DNA from: a virus | Taxonomy: Duplodnaviria; Caudoviricetes | Direction: 5' to 3' (one strand) | Virus record (IMG/VR): IMGVR_UViG_3300043432_000485 | Span: 32,001 to 96,000 of that record | DNA length: 64,000 nt | In this document: positions 9,272-21,540 of the stretch, in pieces | Numbering within the stretch: the stretch's first letter is position 1 | Layout of the letters: every line of letters begins with the position of its first letter | Position numbers and translations under genes: made by a program | The notes under the pieces: model-generated | The model's input: only the letters and a program-made list of their open reading frames with translations | What the model was told of the DNA's origin: nothing | Databases searched by the model: none

Positions 9272-10189
9272 ATGGGTTGTTTTGACTACAGCTGTGCCAT
9301 CTCTGGGCTGTCCATTGGATCCCAGGATCCCGTGCGCTTCCTGCTACTTACTCAGAACCCTGTCACCGATGAGAAGGGACATCGAGGGTGGAACCCTAAC
9401 TCCTGGTGGGTGCCTCGCTGCTTTCCCGTGCGCGCTCTTTACAGCCACTACGGCACCGTCGAGAACATCGAGCAGGGCGTAGGGTTTGACATCATGTTGG
9501 AGGGGCTCCGCCGGGACATCGTGACCCGGGAAGTCGGGGAGAACGAGTACCATGACGTCCCGGTTTGGCCCGACATGCCGTGGGACAAATTGATGGAGGC
9601 CCTTTGGGAAGAACGGGTCCTGGTCAAGATCGAACCTGCGATTGCGGTCCTCGCGACGATCAAGACCCCGCTTGTCGACTATGCGATGATCAGAGAAGAC
9701 GTGTGGCAGCGCTTGCTCCGCGTTCCCATCATCAACACGTTCACGGACAACACCCTGAGGATCAAGCACTTCCGGAAGGAGATCCGGAAGCTGTACTCAG
9801 AAGCCTTGGCTCACCGAGACGATAGTGTGAGGATCAAGGAGATCATGGACAAGGCGGGACAGCCAGATTTCGATTTCGATCAGGCGTGGGAGGATTTCCA
9901 CCACCCGCTCGCGTCTCTTGGTCTTCAGGTTCAGTTCGTCCCCGGAGTTGAGACTCATTGGCGGCTGCTGGTATCTCGCGGGCTGCCGATCGAGCAGGTT
10001 GAGGGCATCTTGGATTCGATCGCCGAACTCGGCTACTTGACCTGCATGCTGGCCAACCTCGGGCACCAGTGGAGGCCCTCCACCACGTACGGGATGCAAC
10101 ACGGGGACTTCCGTTTTCACACGCAATTCCTGCAGGCACTCGCGCAAGTTGGGAACAAACTTGCCAAGGAGCAAGAACAAAACGATTGA
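9272..10189 (+). CDS. Hypothetical phage protein (MGCF..SC.ISGL.I family)
   Basis: Long intact ORF downstream of CGGTGTACT. Confidence 0.65.
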   Translation: MGCFDYSCAISGLSIGSQDPVRFLLLTQNPVTDEKGHRGWNPNSWWVPRCFPVRALYSHYGTVENIEQGVGFDIMLEGLRRDIVTREVGENEYHDVPVWPDMPWDKLMEALWEERVLVKIEPAIAVLATIKTPLVDYAMIREDVWQRLLRVPIINTFTDNTLRIKHFRKEIRKLYSEALAHRDDSVRIKEIMDKAGQPDFDFDQAWEDFHHPLASLGLQVQFVPGVETHWRLLVSRGLPIEQVEGILDSIAELGYLTCMLANLGHQWRPSTTYGMQHGDFRFHTQFLQALAQVGNKLAKEQEQND

Positions 10190-11240: not shown

Positions 11241-11444
11241 ATGTGGCAATTCATGTTCCCATCTAAAGCTCCCCTGGTGGAGGCTGTGGGGCGTCAGTAT
11301 CGACGCAAGCAGGACACCATGACCTAGGAGCTGGTGGCTATCGACACGACGGCTGACACGGTCAAGCTTCGCGGCCCCGGCTACGGCAAGGGCCACATGA
11401 CGATCAGCCGCACCGAGTTTCAAAAGGATTGGGTAGCAGCATGA
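11241..11444 (+). CDS. Small protein with an in-frame TAG at codon 29 (11325-11327)
   Basis: ATG 7 nt after GGTGTAGA; MWQFMFPSKAPLVEAVGRQYRRKQDTMT*ELVAIDTTADTVKLRGPGYGKGHMTISRTEFQKDWVAA; TGA overlaps the coaD ATG. Confidence 0.6.
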
Positions 11445-13238: not shown

Positions 13239-13313
13239 TGGCGGTCCCGAGGTGATTCGAACACCCCTACTGCAATTTTAGAGGTTGCTGCCTGGCCACT
13301 AGGCTACGGGACC
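13239..13313 (-). tRNA. tRNA with CUA anticodon (amber suppressor type), encoded CCA end
   Basis: GGTCCCG/CGGGACC acceptor stem; GCCT/AGGC D stem; GCAAC-CT CTA AA-ATTGC anticodon arm; GGGTG-TTCGAAT-CACCT T arm; G73-CCA. Confidence 0.88.
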
Positions 13314-14355: not shown

Positions 14356-15036
14356 GTGCGGAACAGAGCCCACAAGAACCTATCCCTGAGTTACTACCAA
14401 GAAGGTGGTGCCCCAGAGGTATGCGCCACGCTCAATCTGACACCTCCGGATACCAGGCAGTACGTGCTCCGGATGTTGGTGCACCACCCCATACATGGGT
14501 GGGAGATCCCGTCAGACTTGGCTTGGTTGGCCCCCGGGATCGCGCTGGCCGTCGACTACCAAAAGTCGGTACTGCACAGAGAGGTGGCCTACTGCTATGT
14601 CACCGTCCGACATGGGGAGGTAACCTCCAGCACGGATGATGTATGGCATGTGGACGGCTTTTCGATGCGAGAACCTCACTTGCCGGAGCACGACTACCTC
14701 TGGTGTGACCGCAGTCCTACCGAGTGTTACACGGCAGGCGTGCGTGTGCCGGATGACTTTGATCCGATGCACCACAACCTACACTGGCTCTTCCAGGACG
14801 TGATCCCTGAGGGAGCCCCCGTTCACACTTTACCGACACGAACGCTGGTGGTGATGGACCCCTACCACATCCACCGGCGGCCCAAGATGCCCATGGGAGC
14901 GCATCGAACTCTGGTGCGTATCTCCATGTTACCTATACCCATTTTGACCCCGGATTGCGCCGTCAACCCGGCATACCCTCCGACGGTGTTGGACCGAGAA
15001 GACATTCGTCTGAAGTTGGCGCGGTACCCAATTTAA
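14356..15036 (+). CDS. Putative 2OG-Fe(II) oxygenase-fold protein
   Basis: WHVDG (HxD), distal IHRRP, RTLVRIS; GTG start 7 nt after CGGTGTAAT. Confidence 0.55.
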   Translation: MRNRAHKNLSLSYYQEGGAPEVCATLNLTPPDTRQYVLRMLVHHPIHGWEIPSDLAWLAPGIALAVDYQKSVLHREVAYCYVTVRHGEVTSSTDDVWHVDGFSMREPHLPEHDYLWCDRSPTECYTAGVRVPDDFDPMHHNLHWLFQDVIPEGAPVHTLPTRTLVVMDPYHIHRRPKMPMGAHRTLVRISMLPIPILTPDCAVNPAYPPTVLDREDIRLKLARYPI

Positions 15037-15072
15037 CCCTGGAGTTCTTTCGCGCTGAAGTGTAGTAAAGGC

Positions 15073-16785
15073 ATGCCCTGCTACGAAGTACAATACCACA
15101 TGAACAAACCATCTAAAACCCGATTCTGCCCTCTCAACCGCAAGCTCCTTGCCGCATATCCAAGCGGAGAAGAGCAGATCGCCCTCGGAGAGCAAGTGGC
15201 CCTCAAGGTGTTCAAAAGCCGGGCCACGTTCCCCTACACTCGCATCATCGAGATCGTGGGGATGATGCAGGTGGGTAAAACTCTTACCGTCAAGGCGGCG
15301 ATCAACAAGCTGACTAGTCTCGCCCCGGAACTGCGCCCATTGCTCATGTACTTCATGAGCCAGAACCAGAACATCAATAAGGTTCAAGCTGAGGACGATC
15401 TAGATCCTGACCCGAGTTCCAAGGACATAGGATGTGAACCTAACGCCATGTGTGAAGATTACATCGGCTTACACCCAAGTGCATTGAAGCAGTTCCTTGG
15501 TGGGAGGTTGGCTGGTAAACGCGCAGACGATGATGGAAAGCTTCGTTATTTTAGGGACTGGCGCAAATTGTTAGCTCGTGGTCATCAGCTCATCTTAGCG
15601 TTTGACGAGGACCATCAAGCGCTGAATCGGAACGGGCAACTTAGCAAGCTCTTTTCAGCACTTGGCATCAGCTTCCGCGACGGGCAAGAAACCATCCCGG
15701 AAAACGTAATGATATTGGCCATAGGTGCCACTGGGTGGCCTACGCGCCTAAAAGGTGTTGAGCGAGTGAAGGTGCCGGAGACCAGGGACTACTTGAGTCC
15801 TGAGGGTCTCTTTCCCCGTCTTCATCACATTACCGAGGAAGTTGTGGATGACAATGGGGAGGTCACCACTTCGTTCACAAAGTTTCTCAAGAGGTGTGCC
15901 AAAAAGCAGCCTATGAGCCTGGTCGTTCAAGCTTCTGGAGACAAGCACCTACGTGGGCACCAGGCTATAGCAAAGGCATATCGGGCTCACTACAAGAGTT
16001 TGGGGGTTCCGCGGGTCTCAGTGGTGTCCTACGGATCTACCGTTGCTTGCGACAAGCCGGTAGAGGAGTTTCGAAAGGACATGCTCCGTAAGCCTACGGA
16101 GCCAACCCTCAGACTGCTCATCAACAGCTACGGTTGTGGCATGCGTCTTGACGCTGAGATGTCCAGGTACATCTGTGGTCGCTGGCTAGGTTGTGGGGTG
16201 AAGCCGGGACAGTCGTTTGCGGACGTCCAAGCCGATGTGTGGGCTCAACGTCTGGGCCGAGATTGTGGACGTAGAAAGCGTCATCTAACCTATCCAATCG
16301 CTTGTCACGCCGAGTTCATGAAGTGGGTGATAAAGCAGATGCGCGCTGACATCCCACTCAAAGGAACCTACACGACCTCCAAAGTCAAAGGACGGCGCAC
16401 TCAAGGTGGGGTGAAGGTTTATCGAGAACTAGTGGCGGTCACTGAGAAAGTCGCACGCGCACGCTACTGGTCTGAAAAGGATGGAGAGAAACTTCCCAAC
16501 TGCGTGCGGCCAGGTGGCCGTACCGTCAGTACAGGTAAGAGAAATCGTGACATCTTTCGCCTGATGCTTGGCGGCAACTCTATCGGCACAAGGCATCACC
16601 ATCGTGAGTTTTGCTACATCGAAGTGCCGACTCCAGGGTATGAAGATTCATTTAAAGAGTTCAAGGCCAAGTACCCGGAATTCTTCAAAGAAAATGGCGG
16701 TACCGGTTACGTGGAAATGGTCCGCGTCACGGCGGCAAACGACACGTTCACAGTCCCGCACAAAAAGTCAAGCATGATGGCCTGA
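15073..16785 (+). CDS. SF2 helicase-like ATPase
   Basis: GMMQVGKT (Walker A-like), AFDEDH (DExH), IGAT, QRLGR. Confidence 0.55.
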   Translation: MPCYEVQYHMNKPSKTRFCPLNRKLLAAYPSGEEQIALGEQVALKVFKSRATFPYTRIIEIVGMMQVGKTLTVKAAINKLTSLAPELRPLLMYFMSQNQNINKVQAEDDLDPDPSSKDIGCEPNAMCEDYIGLHPSALKQFLGGRLAGKRADDDGKLRYFRDWRKLLARGHQLILAFDEDHQALNRNGQLSKLFSALGISFRDGQETIPENVMILAIGATGWPTRLKGVERVKVPETRDYLSPEGLFPRLHHITEEVVDDNGEVTTSFTKFLKRCAKKQPMSLVVQASGDKHLRGHQAIAKAYRAHYKSLGVPRVSVVSYGSTVACDKPVEEFRKDMLRKPTEPTLRLLINSYGCGMRLDAEMSRYICGRWLGCGVKPGQSFADVQADVWAQRLGRDCGRRKRHLTYPIACHAEFMKWVIKQMRADIPLKGTYTTSKVKGRRTQGGVKVYRELVAVTEKVARARYWSEKDGEKLPNCVRPGGRTVSTGKRNRDIFRLMLGGNSIGTRHHHREFCYIEVPTPGYEDSFKEFKAKYPEFFKENGGTGYVEMVRVTAANDTFTVPHKKSSMMA

Positions 16786-16872
16786 TTAGCGTTGCAGGGC
16801 CGCATGGAGGCCAGTCGACGGTGTATAGAAGAGTGTTCGGGTGCATCGGCTAGGTGTAAGTAAAGGGGCGCG

Positions 16873-17052
16873 ATGGAATCCATCAAACCCGCCCCATCAC
16901 CTGATTCCGTGCGCCATGCGATGGTCCTGCACCGTCTGGCGAAGCACCCTTTCGAGAGAAGGATTCCAGGCCGCCTCGTACAACAAGACGGCCTGGATAT
17001 CCACATGGTATGCGGGGTATGCTCAGAAGTGATCTATGTGCTGAGCAACTAG
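16873..17052 (+). CDS. Small hypothetical protein (59 aa, CxxC near C-terminus)
   Basis: Read manually: MESIKPAPSP...HMVCGVCSEVIYVLSN*; downstream of GGTGTAAG. Confidence 0.5.
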   Translation: MESIKPAPSPDSVRHAMVLHRLAKHPFERRIPGRLVQQDGLDIHMVCGVCSEVIYVLSN

Positions 17053-17402
17053 CGGGAGAGGGCCAGGGGTAGAGAGCTAGTGATCCTCCTCCCCTCGGGT
17101 CCGAGCGCGATTGCAGTCAGCTCGTTGTTGCGATCCGGCTCCCTGAATCTGGACACCTGGATGTACCGGCCTTCAGCTTTCTTGGCCAGTGCCTCCAAGG
17201 CATCCTCATTGGGAGCCACCAGTAGCGCTAGGGTGTTGGACTCTTGGTGCCATTGCTTGGCTACCTATCCATGTTCGAAAATGAACTCGGTTATGGCATG
17301 TATTGATTGTACTGCCTGTTGTGCATAGCTTAGATCAGACCTTACAATCACGTATAGTTTCGAGATACGTGATCGCCGTTCGCATTGCTGTGGTGTTGTC
17401 AT
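17049..17402 (-). CDS. Peptidyl-tRNA hydrolase 2 (PTH2)-like protein with an in-frame TAG at 17267-17265
   Basis: Read manually: KLYVIVRSDLSYAQQAVQSIHAITEFIFEHG*VAKQWHQESNTLALL...FREPDRNNELTAIALGP...SSLPLAL; absent from the ORF track. Confidence 0.7.
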
Positions 17403-18003
17403 GAAAATATCCTAGTCCTTGGTTACAGGGGTTACACAGAAGTCCACGAACCCTGCCTGAGACATGGTCGTGATCTACATCGAATCTATTTGGGGTGCCC
17501 CTACATATTGCACATACCCCACCTTGAAAAGCTAACATGTCATTGTATTCATTTAGGGTTATGCCATGTGTTTTCAATAGGTAGCCATTTTTCCTACGTT
17601 CTTGGTTCTTAGCTACCCAGGCTTGCCATACGATTTTTCTCTTCTCTGGATTGGAATTTCTCCAGGCAGTATTTTTAGCCTTTTGGCACGCTTTGCAACA
17701 GCTTTGGAGGCCTCCTTCACCCGACTTGCTGAGGTGATACTCAGTGACTGGTTTAGTTTCCATACAGGTAGAGCAACGTTTGGAGCCGGTTGTTCTAACC
17801 GGGGCGCCATTCTCGGCTCTGGACTTTCTCCATTCCTTAGTGCGTTCCCTCTGACAAAGCTTACAGTAGGCTCCAACCCCCTGGCTACCCCTGGAAGCTT
17901 TGTGAAAGGAATCTATGGGCAACTCTTCTTGACATCTCGAACATTTCTTCATACAGCAGCAGAGCAACAAGAATAGTATTGAGTCAACAGGCTTAGAGGC
18001 CAT
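17335..18003 (-). mobile_element. Endonuclease VII-like homing endonuclease inserted at the 5' end of the PTH2-like gene
   Basis: CAIC...DVDHDHVSGRVRGLLCNPCNQGLG; repeated CxxC; AT-rich. Confidence 0.85.
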
Positions 18004-18541
18004 CTGGACCTCCAAAGAGCTTCTGACAGATGGCACGGCCCCGCCGGTCAATCTGTTTCCACTTGATCTTGAATGACGTGCTCTCTGGGCCTCCAAACAT
18101 GGAGGCGTTTGCGTGGATTTCCGCTAGGCCTGAGATCAACAACGTGGGTGCTTCCGGAAGAGCGCAGAACGCATCTATCCCATCAGCTTTCAAGGTGTGG
18201 ATCTTCATGTCGAGCCGCATCAGATTGGCGGAGGCCTGGGTTCCACCTACGCCAAGCCACGTACGGTACGAGACCTCAGCGTGCTCCGGGAACTTGGTTA
18301 TGCCATCTGACTGGCAGTAAGGCTTCCCACAGTCATGATAGGTCGTGTACTCCTCGATGATGTCGATTGGAGCCAACGCGCTTAACAGCTGCCCTCGATA
18401 CTGTTTGATCCAACTGGGCAGTACCCACCAACCCTCTAGATGCCCTCCTTGCAAATAGGAGATCAACTGGAGGGTGTGCCAACGGACTGACAATCCATGG
18501 TCAAACACTGACTGACCTTTGGTTTGTTGACAGTCCTGCAT
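17993..18541 (-). CDS. HD-domain protein
   Basis: HDCGKPYC...FPEHAEVS...DMKIH. Confidence 0.7.
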   Translation of the reverse strand: MQDCQQTKGQSVFDHGLSVRWHTLQLISYLQGGHLEGWWVLPSWIKQYRGQLLSALAPIDIIEEYTTYHDCGKPYCQSDGITKFPEHAEVSYRTWLGVGGTQASANLMRLDMKIHTLKADGIDAFCALPEAPTLLISGLAEIHANASMFGGPESTSFKIKWKQIDRRGRAICQKLFGGPDGL

Positions 18542-18554
18542 GTCTTGGATGAGG

Positions 18555-18881
18555 TCAATCTACGTCATCGGAGTCCTCATCAGCATCAGGGTCCATACCG
18601 GCTAGAATCATGGCATCGAAGTCCAGGTAGCGGACTGCCCACCAGCCTATGATTTCTTTGTCCTTGAGATCCGGGTACCGGGGCCTGTCCTTAGCGTCGT
18701 AGTACCTGGCTTTCAGGTCCTCCATCGTGTAAGGGATGTGCGTTTCATGTCTGCGACGTCGACCATCTTCATAGGTATAGCGCCGCAGCCCTAGGATGGA
18801 TTCGAAAAGCTCATGGTTGGCACATGAGACCTGATACTCTTCCGCACTCATCGGAACCACACCAAACACGCGGGCCGCCAT
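18555..18881 (-). CDS. Hypothetical protein
   Basis: Intact ORF in a tightly packed minus-strand run. Confidence 0.55.
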   Translation of the reverse strand: MAARVFGVVPMSAEEYQVSCANHELFESILGLRRYTYEDGRRRRHETHIPYTMEDLKARYYDAKDRPRYPDLKDKEIIGWWAVRYLDFDAMILAGMDPDADEDSDDVD

Positions 18882-19210
18882 TGGTGTGCCATCTGGATCT
18901 GGGTCGACGCTCCCTTCACCAATACAGTCGAACCAGTGAGGGGCTCTAGCTCGTTCTGGATGAAACGACGCCGGTAGCGGAAGGCGTCTATCACTCCAGT
19001 CTGCAGCTCTACGAGCCGGTTCAGATCAGTGTGCTCCAGAGTCCTTAGCCACACCTCATAGTCCGAGGCTCCTCCGAACCCGTGCCCTTTCTCTTTGGAG
19101 AAAAGCAGGGACAGGCCGCCCCTTTTCATGGGGGTGGCTTGGAACACTAGACGCTGGAGACGTTTGATCTCAGCCTGCAGCTGTTGAATGGTTTGCTCTT
19201 GCTCGGTCAC
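18848..19210 (-). CDS. Hypothetical protein with N-terminal coiled coil
   Basis: GTGA overlap with the upstream stop. Confidence 0.55.
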   Translation of the reverse strand: MTEQEQTIQQLQAEIKRLQRLVFQATPMKRGGLSLLFSKEKGHGFGGASDYEVWLRTLEHTDLNRLVELQTGVIDAFRYRRRFIQNELEPLTGSTVLVKGASTQIQMAHQWRPACLVWFR

Positions 19211-19566
19211 TCGGCAGCCTCCGTGACCTGGGCCACTACCGGCGCCGCTGCATTCAACCACTGCTCGATAGCTTCGCTGGAAAGTGCCAGCCCTCGCTGA
19301 TCAGCCATGGCTTTCATCCCACGGTTGATCCAGTAGAGGACATTGCGATCGTACTTGGGCTCCACCACATGATGGGGGATTCCGCGCAACATCGCGTAGC
19401 ACAACAACAGGCATCGGGTGTCGCGGCCGTAGCTGCGCTTGTCGTCCCAATGCTGCCAGCGGTCCATACCGCTAGACCCATGGATCAGCTTGCGGATCTC
19501 GCGACTCTCCGCTTCACGTTGACGTAACTCTGCTTTCAATTCCGGGAACTTAGACTTCTTGCTCAT
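19207..19566 (-). CDS. Hypothetical protein
   Basis: AGGAG RBS; TTGACA...TATATT promoter-like sequence upstream at about 19690-19714. Confidence 0.65.
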   Translation of the reverse strand: MSKKSKFPELKAELRQREAESREIRKLIHGSSGMDRWQHWDDKRSYGRDTRCLLLCYAMLRGIPHHVVEPKYDRNVLYWINRGMKAMADQRGLALSSEAIEQWLNAAAPVVAQVTEAAE

Positions 19567-19731
19567 GACAATTTCTCCTGTGACTGGGTGTTGACTCGTT
19601 GAAGACAACACGTCACAGGAGGGCCACGCGCGCGAGCCCAACTAGCAATCTACCAGAGATGTCCGTGAATCTGCATAGTGGGCCTAATATAGTGGCTATT
19701 GCCTACCTGTCAAGAGACAAGTAGAAAAATC

Positions 19732-20076
19732 TCACCAATCCCGGTCTTCGTCCATCTCATGACGGCGGCGGCTGCCCTTGTGCTGCTTTCGCGGCCGTGA
19801 AGGCATCTCGGGCGCGGGCTCATACCTGGGCTGCGAACGGTAGACTTCGGGGGCGGGCGCAGCGCGATGCTGGGCGGCTCCGGGATTGAACCCCTGTCCG
19901 GCTGCAGCGGCCTTGCGCTTTGCTCGGCAGCTCGGGCACCGGGTGGGAGGGTTGAACTGCTTCTCGGCAAAGAATGCCTGTTCCCCTGCTGTAAACACAA
20001 ACTTTTCGGGACAATCCCGACACATCTTTTCCTGATCTACGTAATCCGACACTGACTCAGTCTCCTTTGGTTGCAA
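19732..20076 (-). CDS. Zinc-ribbon protein (CxxC-x17-CxxC)
   Basis: CRDCPEKFVFTAGEQAFFAEKQFNPPTRCPSCR. Confidence 0.8.
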   Translation of the reverse strand: MQPKETESVSDYVDQEKMCRDCPEKFVFTAGEQAFFAEKQFNPPTRCPSCRAKRKAAAAGQGFNPGAAQHRAAPAPEVYRSQPRYEPAPEMPSRPRKQHKGSRRRHEMDEDRDW

Positions 20077-20080
20077 ATGG

Positions 20081-20497
20081 TTAGGGCCTCATTTTAGAGA
20101 GGCGGCTCGCTACTTCCTGGGAACCCTTTGAGGAGAGCCCAGATTGACGTCGTATGTTTACCCGCATAACAGGTTCCGCGCTAGTGTTCACAGTGTAGTT
20201 AATGGTGCGCGGAACCGATTCTTCTAGTCCCGGGCGCGCTTGGCGCCGAGCCAGGTCTTTTGAGACCCGCGTCACCAGCAAGAACAGCTCGCTCTTAGCG
20301 GGGTCCCCCTGATTGTGATCGGGGTGCAGCTCTAGGGCAGCCTTCTTGTAGTTCTTGCGTACCTTAATCTTCAGCTTCTTGAGGGATGCCTCTCCTTCCA
20401 GAAAGGGGGCATTTTCTATGCTCTTCAGTTCCGCCTCGGTGACACCAAGGACCTGGTAGGCTCTCTGAAGATCGTATGCTGAAAGTGGCGCGGGCAT
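20081..20497 (-). CDS. J-domain (DnaJ-like) protein
   Basis: YQVLGV...YKKAALELHPD. Confidence 0.75.
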   Translation of the reverse strand: MPAPLSAYDLQRAYQVLGVTEAELKSIENAPFLEGEASLKKLKIKVRKNYKKAALELHPDHNQGDPAKSELFLLVTRVSKDLARRQARPGLEESVPRTINYTVNTSAEPVMRVNIRRQSGLSSKGSQEVASRLSKMRP

Positions 20498-20560
20498 GTG
20501 GGTTGAGGCCGGTGGGCCTCACTCAATCAACATAGTGGGGGCACAAAAGCAAACGTGCTA

Positions 20561-20959
20561 TTAGGAACGCCCATAGTTAGTGTAGAACACGAGTCCGGAA
20601 GGCATCTCCATAGGCTTGATTTCAACCTCCCCAATCTGAAACAACCCAAAACTGGACGGTGGAGACTCTGGCTTAGGGGGGTACTCTAACAATAGTCCGG
20701 GGTTCTCATTATTGATGAGTGCATAAGCCTCCTTTACCGGCAAAGACAGTCCCCGAGCCGTGTTGGTAGCGGTCGATGAATGATGATCATGGCTGCATCT
20801 GGGTTTGTGAATCACCCAACCAAGGGCTTCTAACTCAGCCTCGTTGTGGGCATGCACCTTCTTAGATTCAATCAGCCATTGACGCTCGCGCTCGAAATCC
20901 TCTGGTGCCCAATTATCTACGCCGAGTCTGCGGATCCCTGGGAATGTTTGTTCGGTCAT
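20561..20959 (-). CDS. Hypothetical protein
   Basis: ATGA overlap; TAA-TAG double stop. Confidence 0.55.
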   Translation of the reverse strand: MTEQTFPGIRRLGVDNWAPEDFERERQWLIESKKVHAHNEAELEALGWVIHKPRCSHDHHSSTATNTARGLSLPVKEAYALINNENPGLLLEYPPKPESPPSSFGLFQIGEVEIKPMEMPSGLVFYTNYGRS

Positions 20960-21540
20960 ACCAAACTATCCTTTTTGCTCCATTGGGACAGCTTCACAGC
21001 TGCGCGCTTCAAAGCGTCGGGCTGACTGGCAACCTTCACGCCTGGCAAGCTCAACGGGAACTTGATCACAAGACGGCCAGTGCCTCGGTTGGAGCCCCAG
21101 AGCAGCAGCTCGTGCGCCCCCCAAGAGATCTCCGGGATCTCTCCATCGTAATGAGCTTCAGGGTCCGGATCGTAGGCCAACGTCACGTGGGGCTTGTACT
21201 CCGGATAGTTGTTCGAGTAGGGCATCTTCGCCGCATCGAGCTTGGCCTTTAGTGCATCCCGAAAGTCATGCAGCTCGGGCGAGAAGACCCTGCAGATCAC
21301 TGGCGTACCATCATCGCCCGCTGGGAAGCTGGAAACCCAATTGGTAGACACCGAGAAGGGGAGCGTCTTGGACGTCACTTCATACAACAAGGGAAGCATC
21401 TCCGAGATGCGTTCAATCGGGACGTCCTTTCCAAGATGAATCACCGTGATGTGAGAATGCTGCTCTCGCTTACCCTCTACAGGGATCTCCTGCAGGATTC
21501 TGGACGTCTCTTCGGGGACCGCGATCATCAATGCTGCCAT
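20956..21540 (-). CDS. 2H phosphoesterase (2'-5' RNA ligase / Acb1-like)
   Basis: Two HxT motifs: SHITV and PHVTL. Confidence 0.8.
   Translation of the reverse strand: MAALMIAVPEETSRILQEIPVEGKREQHSHITVIHLGKDVPIERISEMLPLLYEVTSKTLPFSVSTNWVSSFPAGDDGTPVICRVFSPELHDFRDALKAKLDAAKMPYSNNYPEYKPHVTLAYDPDPEAHYDGEIPEISWGAHELLLWGSNRGTGRLVIKFPLSLPGVKVASQPDALKRAAVKLSQWSKKDSLV

What the first reader, a model, noticed from the sequence alone, without database searches (positions are those of the whole stretch)
17049..17402. Hidden PTH2-like gene interrupted by one TAG
Seen in sequence (missed by the ORF track): the minus strand encodes KLYVIVRSDLSYAQQAVQSIHAITEFIFEHG*VAKQWHQESNTLALL...FREPDRNNELTAIALGP...SSLPLAL, with TAG at 17267-17265 and the sequence after it still looking intact. 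Established: PTH2-fold enzymes recycle peptidyl-tRNA, and similar small proteins occur beside HD genes in large phages. Inference: this is a second readthrough candidate, linking amber suppression to translation rescue. Caveat: the gene is also hit by an endonuclease insertion, so it may simply be decaying.
Basis: partly seen in the sequence, partly recalled or inferred. Interest (0 to 1): 0.7.

Follow-up and report, generated by a model that had tools for sequence, protein, structure and literature searches.

The report
Amber-interrupted phage PTH2-like gene
A small tRNA-hydrolase-like gene of a 203-kb freshwater phage has one UAG stop inside it and a homing-endonuclease gene inserted at its start, yet is otherwise fully conserved; the phage carries its own UAG-reading tRNA, and many unrelated phages keep UAG codons in this same gene beside such a tRNA, so it is more likely read through than dead.

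Summary
On the minus strand, 17360-17052 encodes a Pth2-fold protein with one in-frame TAG (17267-17265). The gene ends at a second TAG (17051-17049). An endonuclease VII-type homing endonuclease gene of 634 nt sits after codon 4 and has taken over the original start.

There is no other lesion. The part after the TAG scores above 93% of 120 homologues, and the lineage shows no faster protein change than its relatives.

The genome uses the standard code: TAG ends 45 of 215 crude genes. Its only tRNA has a CUA anticodon.

I surveyed 69 distinct phage PTH2-like genes.
- 48 have a tRNA(CUA) nearby, usually within 1 kb downstream.
- 25 carry in-frame TAG and none carries an internal TGA or TAA. The TAG is at codon 3-5 in 20 clusters and internal in 8.
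- Several internal TAGs lie in the same loop as here, including in the published huge phage LR756501.

Best reading (0.6): the gene is live and the phage's own suppressor tRNA reads its UAG. Whether the UAG is a deliberate gate or a tolerated mutation is open. Main rival (0.3): a very recent pseudogene.

The protein is not a canonical Pth2; the genome has one elsewhere. This scan has already noted the same cassette on other DNA (81 notes, at least 53 genomes). I found no published description.

The parts
17052..17360 (-). Body of the PTH2-like gene (residues K15 to R117 of the read-through protein), homologous over its full length to ~104-aa phage and bacterial PTH2-like proteins
   Evidence: Pfam PF01981 at 33.9 bits. 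537 homologues, best 69% identical. Subfamily profile score 167.3 bits, equal to the median of the homologues. Predicted structure has pLDDT 93.3, and its 15 best PDB matches, all with E of 7.4e-4 or better, are 14 Pth2 chains (TM 0.60-0.78) and one protein of unknown function, 2gax.
17265..17267 (-). In-frame TAG (codon 46 counted from ATG 17402), followed by G (TAG GTA). It lies at the junction of helix 1 and helix 2.
   Evidence: The aligned column is variable in 120 homologues (E 50, D 15, A 12, Q 7, V 6 and others). Other phages have TAG in the same loop: L085, the L061 group, L079, L014 and LR756501. Helix junction from the model.
17049..17051 (-). Terminator TAG at the family-typical C-terminus, followed by T. 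A second in-frame TAG lies 4 codons later (17036-17034).
   Evidence: So TAG is both internal and terminal in this one gene.
17400..17402 (-). Candidate replacement start codon (ATG) inside the endonuclease gene. AGGA lies at 17413-17410, 7 nt upstream. It would add a 14-residue leader that the model predicts to be disordered.
   Evidence: An SD-like motif precedes 10.6% of all ATGs and 34% of called starts, so this is weak support. N-terminal pLDDT is about 60. Intact homologues also have 10-20-residue N-terminal extensions.
17335..18003 (-). Endonuclease VII-type (HNH) homing endonuclease ORF of 222 aa. It begins with the original PTH2 start (M-A-S-K, ATG GCC TCT AAG, overlapping the HD gene's TAA) and ends inside the resumed PTH2 frame.
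   Evidence: Pfam Endonuclease_7 at E 1.1e-22. PHROG endonuclease VII at E 8.7e-46. L001 and L002 have HD then PTH2 directly coupled, with no insert. About 10 paralogues in the genome.
17358..17991 (-). The 634-nt insertion relative to L001 and L002. Its boundaries are ambiguous by 6 nt because the Ser-Lys codons are duplicated (TCT AAG and TCG AAA). Its length is not a multiple of 3.
   Evidence: Comparison of junction sequences. No Rfam intron or other RNA family match at E up to 10.
17993..18568 (-). HD-like gene (phrog_14850). Its best start is ATG 18568 with GAGGA 5 nt upstream, and its third codon is TAG (18562-18560). In the relatives it is translationally coupled to PTH2.
   Evidence: ATG ACG TAG (A/G)TT is conserved in the window, L001 and L002. 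PHROG hit at E 1.2e-47. HD-like and PTH2-like genes are adjacent in several other phage clusters.
13239..13313 (-). tRNA with anticodon CUA, the only tRNA of the 203-kb genome, 3.7 kb from the PTH2-like gene
   Evidence: ARAGORN. Rfam tRNA at 51.3 bits. tRNA(CUA) genes sit at the syntenic place beside ParB in L001 and L002; L003 has one 3.9 kb from its PTH2-like gene.

Best explanation
This is a live member of a distinct phage 'PTH2-like' subfamily, and its internal UAG is decoded by the phage's own amber-suppressor tRNA(CUA). Full-length protein is therefore made only while, and as far as, that tRNA is active.

Shown:
- The gene is intact apart from the TAG.
- It has the Pth2 fold.
- The genome uses the standard code and carries one tRNA, with anticodon CUA.
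- Across phages, this subfamily is physically linked to suppressor tRNA genes and repeatedly carries in-frame TAG, never TGA or TAA. The TAG sits either at codon 3-5 or in the same helix1-helix2 loop as here.

Inferred:
- A homing endonuclease gene inserted after codon 4 and captured the native start, which was coupled to the HD-like gene.
- The PTH2 body is now translated from ATG 17402 inside the endonuclease gene.
- The UAG (context UAG-G) is partly suppressed, while the terminator UAG (context UAG-U, with a second UAG 4 codons later) mostly terminates.

I cannot tell whether this particular UAG is a selected gate or a nonsense mutation tolerated because the suppressor buffers it; I put these at roughly even odds. 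The enzyme's substrate (peptidyl-tRNA, or the suppressor tRNA itself) is unknown.
For: 1. No decay. All 21 columns invariant in the 26-sequence alignment are kept, 14 of them after the TAG. The C-terminal part scores 117.0 bits, above 93% of 120 homologues, and the whole protein scores at their median. Unique amino-acid changes are 10 for the window against 11 for L002 with L001 as outgroup, and 6 against 7 with L003.
2. The TAG column tolerates 16 different residues and lies at a helix junction.
3. Suppressor. The only tRNA has anticodon CUA, and the relatives keep one too.
4. Family pattern in 69 clusters at 80% identity. 48 have a tRNA(CUA) in the flank, and 33 of those lie within 1 kb downstream on the same strand. 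25 have in-frame TAG and none has internal TGA or TAA. TAG makes up only 35% of single-step nonsense paths, so eight internal TAGs out of eight has P of 2.5e-4. Seven further clusters have a tRNA(UCA) or tRNA(UUA) beside the gene.
5. These loci use the standard code, as does this genome.
6. TAG recurs in the same loop in lineages only 37-56% identical: L085, the L061 group, L079, L014 and LR756501.
7. The base after an in-frame TAG is a purine in 26 of 28 cases, against 19 of 32 terminator TAGs (p 0.003). Here the internal TAG is followed by G and the terminator TAG by T.
8. The neighbouring HD-like gene has a conserved TAG as codon 3. A second lineage-specific TAG, at an invariant Trp, sits in the small gene at 11325, and a 98%-identical variant has Trp there. 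TAG mutations are thus tolerated in this phage.
Against: - The native start codon and its coupling to the HD gene now serve the endonuclease. The replacement start is only a plausible ATG with AGGA (likelihood ratio about 3). Its sequence is also dictated by the conserved endonuclease motif G-L-G-Y-F-H-D.
- Two lesions in one gene is the classic look of a pseudogene.
- The closest relatives, L001 and L002, have no TAG in this gene, so this TAG is not conserved within its own clade.
- For the window taken alone, a random nonsense hit would be TAG about 35% of the time.
- The genome has a canonical pth2 elsewhere, which might make this gene dispensable.
- TAG ends 32 well-scored genes with no extra back-up stops, so strong suppression should be costly.
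- The link between in-frame TAG and a tRNA(CUA) in the flank is only marginal (odds ratio 3.3, p 0.06).
- Nothing is experimental. It is not shown that the tRNA is expressed or charged, or that the protein is made.
Confidence: 0.6

Rival explanations
1. Recent pseudogene. The homing endonuclease insertion cut the gene off from its start and killed it. The TAG is the first neutral hit afterwards, and the good conservation only means that too little time has passed.
For: The native start is captured by the endonuclease ORF, and the 634-nt insert shifts the frame. The TAG is absent from L001 and L002. The intact endonuclease ORF suggests a recent invasion. A canonical pth2 exists elsewhere in the genome. 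A single nonsense hit is TAG about 35% of the time by chance. The N-terminal part scores only at the 12th percentile of homologues.
Against: There is no second substitution-type lesion, no indel and no loss of any conserved residue. The lineage shows no faster protein change. The one stop is the codon that the phage's own tRNA reads. It lies in the loop where other phages carry TAG and in a purine context typical of the family's in-frame TAGs. A usable ATG with AGGA exists.
Confidence: 0.3
2. The 634-nt insert is a self-splicing intron (or is otherwise removed from the RNA), so that the mature message again reads M-A-S-K-L-Y-V-I-V from the native start. The TAG is then still read by the suppressor.
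For: Removing the insert restores the family-typical N-terminus exactly. Homing endonuclease genes often ride in group I introns (general knowledge).
Against: No group I, group II or other Rfam family matches at E up to 10 over 16900-18700. The endonuclease ORF fills the whole insert and leaves no room for a ribozyme core. The ORF is fused in frame to the host gene's first four codons, which is typical of a free-standing insertion.
Confidence: 0.04
3. The phage has reassigned TAG genome-wide (code 15), and this TAG is an ordinary sense codon.
For: The only tRNA reads UAG.
Against: TAG ends 45 of 215 crude genes, including genes of 1948 and 1411 codons. In-frame TAG shows no excess over TGA or TAA between coding-like flanks. 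This gene itself ends at TAG at the family-typical C-terminus.
Confidence: 0.01
4. The TAG is a sequencing or assembly error.
For: None found.
Against: A JGI contig is identical, and so is a contig from another sample and study that covers the TAG.
Confidence: 0.01

Closest known systems
Archaeal and eukaryotic peptidyl-tRNA hydrolase Pth2 (Pfam PF01981; structures 2zv3, 3erj, 1wn2, 1q7s, 1xty)
   Same: Same fold: TM 0.70-0.78 and rmsd 2.0-2.6 A to the closest Pth2 crystal structures, 2zv3, 3erj and 1wn2. The N-terminal Lys in strand 1 and the Q/H-A helix motif are kept. Profile match at E 1.3e-8.
   Different: It scores far below the equivalog cut-offs (23.6 bits against 126). The canonical D-A-G-x-T loop is replaced by an invariant E-P-D-R-x-N-E with a 4-residue deletion, and the G-K insertion of helix 1 is missing. 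The genome has a separate canonical-type pth2 that does not match the subfamily profile. Activity is untested.
Mycobacteriophage Bxz1-type 'peptidyl tRNA hydrolase' (for example Breeniome gp159) with the tRNA(cta) that follows it
   Same: Same subfamily (40% identity). A tRNA(CUA) lies 300 nt downstream, as the first tRNA after the gene. ATG TAG directly precedes the annotated GTG start.
   Different: It is cultured and annotated as an uninterrupted gene, with no internal TAG and no endonuclease inside the gene. In the window the tRNA is 3.7 kb away.
TAG-recoded (code 15) phages with phage-encoded suppressor tRNAs (Borges et al., bioRxiv 10.1101/2021.08.26.457843)
   Same: A phage-encoded tRNA(CUA) reads UAG inside phage genes, and recoding is proposed to act as a regulatory device.
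   Different: There, TAG is reassigned in many genes (structural and lysis genes), mostly in low-GC gut phages where TAG is rarely a stop. Here the genome has 56% GC, uses TAG as a normal stop, and only a few genes near the tRNA carry in-frame TAG. That paper does not mention a hydrolase.
Suppressor tRNAs of standard-code jumbo phages with no known target (Xanthomonas phage XacN1, PMC5852040)
   Same: A standard-code large phage with tRNA(CUA) and a peptidyl-tRNA hydrolase gene.
   Different: The authors read through terminal amber codons only and found no target. Here, and in the survey, the targets are in-frame TAGs inside or at the start of the PTH2-like gene.
Genes split by a free-standing homing endonuclease that stay functional (Aeromonas phage Aeh1 nrdA split by mobE; recalled from memory, not checked here)
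   Same: An HNH-type endonuclease gene is inserted inside a phage gene, and the downstream piece gains its own start.
   Different: Here the split comes after only four codons, so it amounts to a replaced N-terminus. Function after the split is not shown.
prfB (RF2) autoregulation through an in-frame UGA (general knowledge)
   Same: An in-frame stop codon early in a translation-factor gene makes synthesis depend on how that stop is decoded.
   Different: prfB uses a +1 frameshift and senses its own product. Here read-through needs a separate suppressor tRNA, and no feedback is shown.

Membership tests
Pfam PTH2 (PF01981) superfamily | HMM score at or above the gathering cut-off | tested here: met
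   33.9 bits against a cut-off of 23, E 3.9e-8, residues 15-105 on profile positions 2-102 of 115
Pfam PTH2 (PF01981) superfamily | Pth2 alpha/beta fold | tested here: met
   AlphaFold model with pLDDT 93.3 and pTM 0.85. The 15 PDB matches with E of 7.4e-4 or better are 14 chains of Pth2-family structures (TM 0.60-0.78, probability 1.0) and one protein of unknown function, 2gax.
Canonical Pth2 (NCBIfam NF003314, TIGR00283 equivalogs) | Score at or above the equivalog cut-off | tested here: not met
   23.6 bits against 126, and 18.7 bits against 82. A different gene of the genome (25859-26296) has the canonical motifs and does not match the subfamily profile.
Canonical Pth2 | Catalytic Lys in strand 1 and Asp in the D-A-G-x-T loop (residue roles recalled from the S. 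solfataricus work) | tested here: inconclusive
   K15 aligns with the canonical Lys. The canonical Asp aligns with the invariant E88, next to the invariant D90. The G-x-T part is absent and the loop is 4 residues shorter.
Canonical Pth2 | Hydrolysis of peptidyl-tRNA | not testable with these tools
   No biochemical data exist for this subfamily as far as I found.
Phage PTH2-like and suppressor-tRNA cassette (unpublished class seen in this survey and in earlier scan notes) | Member of the K-L-Y-V-I-V-R / F-R-E-P-D subfamily | tested here: met
   167.3 bits against a profile of 120 homologues, equal to their median
Phage PTH2-like and suppressor-tRNA cassette | Suppressor tRNA gene close to the PTH2-like gene | tested here: met
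   tRNA(CUA) lies 3.7 kb away. That is farther than the usual distance under 1 kb (33 of 48 clusters), but the relatives L001, L002 and L003 have a tRNA(CUA) at a similar distance, 2.6-3.8 kb.
Phage PTH2-like and suppressor-tRNA cassette | In-frame stop matching the tRNA's anticodon, with intact sequence after it, in a standard-code genome | tested here: met
   TAG at codon 46, with the C-terminal part above 93% of homologues. The genome uses the standard code.
Phage PTH2-like and suppressor-tRNA cassette | The stop codon is actually read through by the tRNA | not testable with these tools
   No RNA or protein data; no RNA holder was listed
Decaying pseudogene | Several independent lesions or relaxed constraint | tested here: inconclusive
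   The start is displaced and there is one TAG. There are no frameshifts, no other stops, no loss of conserved residues and no faster protein change. dS is saturated, so dN/dS says nothing about recent history.
Group I or II intron carrying a homing endonuclease | Ribozyme core detectable around the ORF | tested here: not met
   No Rfam match at E up to 10 over 16900-18700. The ORF fills the insert.
Intein | In-frame insertion at both junctions | tested here: not met
   The insert is 634 nt, not a multiple of 3, and the frame changes at the 3' junction.
Code 15 (TAG reassigned) phage | TAG is rare or absent as a terminator and frequent inside genes | tested here: not met
   TAG ends 45 of 215 crude genes. 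In-frame TAG shows no excess over TGA or TAA.

The most novel reading that the evidence does not exclude
The PTH2-like protein is not a general peptidyl-tRNA hydrolase but a dedicated partner of phage suppressor tRNAs of all three anticodons. The matching in-frame stop in its own gene would make a sensor or feedback loop. The enzyme would be made only when the suppressor is active. It would then act on the suppressor's own aminoacyl- or peptidyl-tRNA, or on the products of read-through, to hold suppression at a level that a standard-code phage can bear. The window would show that the loop is robust enough to survive loss of the native start to a homing endonuclease, and that the gate can sit inside the protein at a tolerant helix junction.
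Probability: 0.2. Interest if true: 0.85.

Novelty: new variant of a known kind. Interest (0 to 1): 0.6.

Why it matters
Suppressor tRNAs in phages that use the standard code have had no known targets; the XacN1 authors looked and found none (PMC5852040).

This locus and the survey around it point to a specific, recurrent target. It is a small Pth2-fold gene that sits next to the suppressor tRNA and carries the matching stop codon. That would be a natural, gene-specific use of stop-codon suppression as a switch, distinct from genome-wide recoding.

It can be tested in cultured mycobacteriophages of the Bxz1 type, which carry the same gene-tRNA pair.

For annotation, it means that such 'broken' PTH2-like genes should not be called pseudogenes by default. 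This window adds two things: an internal gate position shared with distant phages, and a homing endonuclease that has taken over the gene's start.

Tried and rejected
- Nucleotide search of 15000-21000 against the phage collection: no match.
- The tRNA against the phage and E. coli collections: no match.
- tRNA isotype by similarity to 188 other tRNAs in the loci: inconclusive. The nearest are other suppressor-like tRNAs (UCA, UUA) and a short tRNA(UAA). Discriminator bases and lengths differ among the 60 distinct tRNA(CUA) sequences, so I assign no amino acid.
- Genome-wide screens for other in-frame TAGs by coding potential: no excess over TGA or TAA, and most candidates are adjacent genes in one frame.
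- Back-up stops after TAG terminators: not enriched.
- TAG-interrupted genes in relatives within the shared 20-40 kb: none convincing apart from PTH2.
- dN/dS on the 3' half: pS is 0.69-0.77, so dS is saturated and the ratio is uninformative.
- Sequencing runs: no RNA holder was listed. Run X3 has identical short contigs, but none covers the TAG.
- Closer relatives: the only identical fragment outside the genome (L015) is the same phage at 100% identity.
- Promoter scan of 16600-19000: nothing. Rfam at lax threshold: only a chance microRNA hit.
- The small ORF at 11241-11444 against my loci: no homologue. The protein database search did resolve it.
- Reinitiation at GTG 17351 was considered and set aside, because it would remove K15, which is conserved in at least 90% of homologues.

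Full report
**The observation**

The window is bases 32001-96000 of a single 203,362-bp contig with 56% GC. On the minus strand the frame from ATG 17402 reads a 14-residue leader, then K-L-Y-V-I-V-R-S-D-L and onward to E-H-G. TAG follows at 17267-17265, then V-A-K-Q-W through F-R-E-P-D-R-N-N-E-L-T-A-I-A-L-G-P to L-P-L-A-L-S-R, and TAG at 17051-17049.

Read through, the protein matches Pfam PTH2 above the gathering score (33.9 bits against 23, E 3.9e-8). It has 537 homologues of about 104 residues, the best 69% identical. A profile of 120 of them finds this frame as the only hit in the six-frame genome (E 2.9e-51).

The TAG is not an assembly slip. A JGI contig of the same phage is identical. 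A 250-nt contig from another sample and study covers 17138-17387 without a difference.

**Anatomy**

In two syntenic relatives (L001, a 108-kb contig, and L002) a 181/182-residue HD-like gene is followed directly by the PTH2-like gene. The PTH2 ATG overlaps the HD stop.

In the window the same ATG GCC TCT AAG overlaps the HD stop, but it runs on into a 222-residue endonuclease VII-type homing endonuclease (Pfam E 1.1e-22, PHROG E 8.7e-46). After 634 nt the PTH2 sequence resumes at a second copy of the Ser-Lys codons, in another frame, overlapping the last 26 nt of the endonuclease ORF.

So the endonuclease gene went in after codon 4 and took the native, translationally coupled start.
- It is not an intein, because 634 is not a multiple of 3.
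- Rfam finds no intron.
- The genome holds about ten paralogous endonuclease genes.
- The only plausible new start is ATG 17402, with AGGA 7 nt upstream. Such a motif precedes 10.6% of all ATGs and 34% of called starts, so this is weak support.
- The added leader is predicted to be disordered. Intact homologues also have N-terminal extensions of 10-20 residues.

**Is the gene decaying?**

All 21 invariant columns of a 26-sequence alignment are kept, 14 of them after the TAG. I scored the window against a profile built without it.
- The whole protein scores 167.3 bits; the homologues' median is 168.2.
- The part after the TAG scores 117.0 bits, above 93% of homologues.
- The part before the TAG scores at the 12th percentile.

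A relative-rate count gives 10 unique amino-acid changes for the window against 11 for L002 with L001 as outgroup, and 6 against 7 with L003. Synonymous sites are saturated, so dN/dS says nothing about recent history. There are no frameshifts or other stops. If the gene is dead, it died very recently.

**The TAG site**

The aligned column is variable: E 50, D 15, A 12, Q 7, V 6, G 5, S 5, K 4, R 4 and others among 120 homologues. In a confident model (pLDDT 93.3) it lies at the junction of helix 1 and helix 2. The model's 15 PDB matches with E of 7.4e-4 or better are 14 chains of Pth2-family structures (TM 0.60-0.78, the best about 0.75) and one protein of unknown function, 2gax.

**Genetic code and the tRNA**

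The genome's only tRNA has anticodon CUA (13239-13313, minus strand; Rfam 51.3 bits).

The genome is not recoded.
- TAG ends 45 of 215 crude genes, including genes of 1948 and 1411 codons.
- In-frame TAG between coding-like flanks is no commoner than TGA or TAA.
- TAG terminators have no extra back-up stops.

L001 and L002 each have a tRNA(CUA) at the syntenic place beside ParB, and L003 has one 3.9 kb from its PTH2-like gene. I could not assign its amino acid.

**The family pattern**

A scan of IMG/VR with the alignment gave 80 loci. Together with the earlier loci these make 69 clusters at 80% identity.
- 48 have a tRNA(CUA) within the 6-10 kb flank. In 33 of these it lies within 1 kb downstream on the same strand. 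CUA is by far the commonest anticodon in these loci, 53 of 228 tRNAs.
- Seven of the remaining clusters have a tRNA(UCA) or tRNA(UUA) beside the gene. Two of those have an early TGA.
- 25 clusters carry in-frame TAG. In 20 it is codon 3-5 (M-x-TAG-I/V), and in all but a few no ATG, GTG or TTG lies between the TAG and the conserved domain. In 8 it is internal. No cluster has an internal TGA or TAA.
- TAG makes up 35% of single-step nonsense paths in these genes, so eight internal TAGs out of eight has P of about 2.5e-4.
- The loci use the standard code. ORF tiling under code 11 covers 0.64-0.92 (0.73 or more in all but one of 31 loci), and reading TAG as sense gains no more than the TGA or TAA controls, over 27-65% GC.
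- Internal TAGs in the window's loop occur in L085, the L061 group, L079 and L014, which are only 37-56% identical to one another and to the window.
- The base after an in-frame TAG is a purine in 26 of 28 cases, against 19 of 32 TAG terminators (p 0.003). From memory of the classical context studies (Bossi 1983; Miller and Albertini 1983), a 3' purine favours amber suppression. Here the internal TAG is followed by G and the terminator TAG by T.

**Published genomes show the same**

- In mycobacteriophage Breeniome (Bxz1 type) the 'peptidyl tRNA hydrolase' gene is followed 300 nt later by tRNA(cta). ATG TAG directly precedes its annotated GTG start.
- The huge phages LR756504, LR756500, LR756501 and LR745206 have TAG at codon 3-4.
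- LR756501 also has an internal TAG at the window's column, and two tRNA(CUA) genes.

**The operon in this window**

The HD-like gene (phrog_14850) has its best start at ATG 18568, with GAGGA 5 nt upstream. Its third codon is TAG. The string ATG ACG TAG (A/G)TT is conserved in L001 and L002, although it overlaps the end of the upstream gene.

In this clade the HD-PTH2 pair was therefore already behind an early amber codon. After the insertion, the endonuclease inherits that coupling (inference).

A third lineage-specific TAG lies in the small gene at 11325. Three homologues have Trp there, one of them otherwise identical to the window's protein. That is not incompatible, but it gives no positive evidence for one shared amino acid. 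It does show that TAG mutations persist in intact genes of this phage, as expected if the suppressor buffers them.

**What the protein is**

It has the Pth2 fold, but it fails the canonical Pth2 equivalog models (23.6 bits against 126). It has E-P-D-R-x-N-E where Pth2 has D-A-G-x-T, with a 4-residue deletion. It coexists with a canonical-type pth2 at genome 25859-26296 that does not match the subfamily profile. PHROGs file it under unknown function or hydrolase. 'Peptidyl-tRNA hydrolase' is therefore a lead, not a finding.

**Literature**

- The stop-codon recoding survey of Borges et al. does not mention a hydrolase.
- The XacN1 paper could not find targets for its tRNA(CUA) genes.
- The jumbo-phage overview of Iyer et al. 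lists PTH2 as part of RNA repair, with no link to suppressors.
- I found no paper describing the pairing.
- Earlier notes of this scan describe the same cassette on other DNA: 81 notes in at least 53 genomes. So within the scan this is a further case, with two special features: an internal gate position and a start captured by an endonuclease.

**Verdict**

- Most likely (0.6): a live gene whose UAG is read by the phage's own suppressor tRNA. Whether the UAG is a selected gate or a buffered mutation is undecided.
- Main rival (0.3): a very recent pseudogene made by the endonuclease insertion.
- Minor rivals: splicing of the insert (0.04), genome-wide recoding (0.01) and sequencing error (0.01).

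Noticed in passing
window 18560-18568 (minus strand); L001 about 9436-9444; L002 about 1556-1564: The HD-like gene upstream of PTH2 has ATG ACG TAG (A/G)TT as its best start, with GAGGA 5 nt upstream in the window. This is conserved in three relatives. It overlaps the last codons of the upstream 108-residue gene, which could also explain the conservation.
   Followed up: partly
window 11319-11327 (plus strand): The small gene coupled to the coaD-like gene has TAG where three homologues (98%, 79% and 54% identical) have an invariant Trp. The local string is ATG ACC TAG GAG, which resembles the early-TAG motif, but the upstream residues are conserved as protein.
   Followed up: partly
genome 25859-26296 (window -6141 to -5704, outside the window): A second pth2 of canonical type (145 codons by the longest ORF, ending at TAG). 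It does not match the PTH2-like subfamily profile.
   Followed up: partly
L060, L093, L022, L023, L027, L037, L073: PTH2-like genes without a tRNA(CUA) nearby have a tRNA(UCA) or tRNA(UUA) beside them. L060 (two tRNA-UCA) and L093 have a TGA just upstream of the conserved domain. Stop codon and anticodon may change together.
   Followed up: partly
L099 (LR756500.1), just downstream of the PTH2-like gene: The next ORF also begins ATG AAG TAG ATT (M-K-TAG-I-K-I-T-I-R-G), so early amber codons are not confined to the PTH2-like gene.
   Followed up: no
L005, L006 (10802-10875); L099 (9822-9897): A short, type-I-length tRNA with anticodon UAA lies next to the PTH2-like gene. ARAGORN calls it Leu, but it lacks the long variable arm of bacterial tRNA-Leu.
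   Followed up: no
window 12604 to about 13200 (minus strand): An HNH-type endonuclease ORF lies directly downstream of the tRNA(CUA). Endonuclease VII-type genes also lie 400-900 nt from PTH2-like genes in L032 and L080. The genome has about ten endonuclease VII paralogues.
   Followed up: partly
window 19834-19881: The other assembly of this phage (L015) lacks 48 bp here, inside the 114-codon gene 19732-20076. It is otherwise 100% identical over 8.3 kb.
   Followed up: no
window 17993-18541 (minus strand): The HD-like protein matches only positions 90-267 of the 270-position PHROG 14850 profile, so family members elsewhere have about 90 more N-terminal residues. The upstream 108-residue gene has no family hit.
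   Followed up: no
window 17412-17414 (minus strand): Another in-frame TAG lies four codons upstream of the candidate start ATG 17402, inside the AGGA-containing stretch (C-TAG-GA). With read-through the frame stays open further upstream.
   Followed up: no
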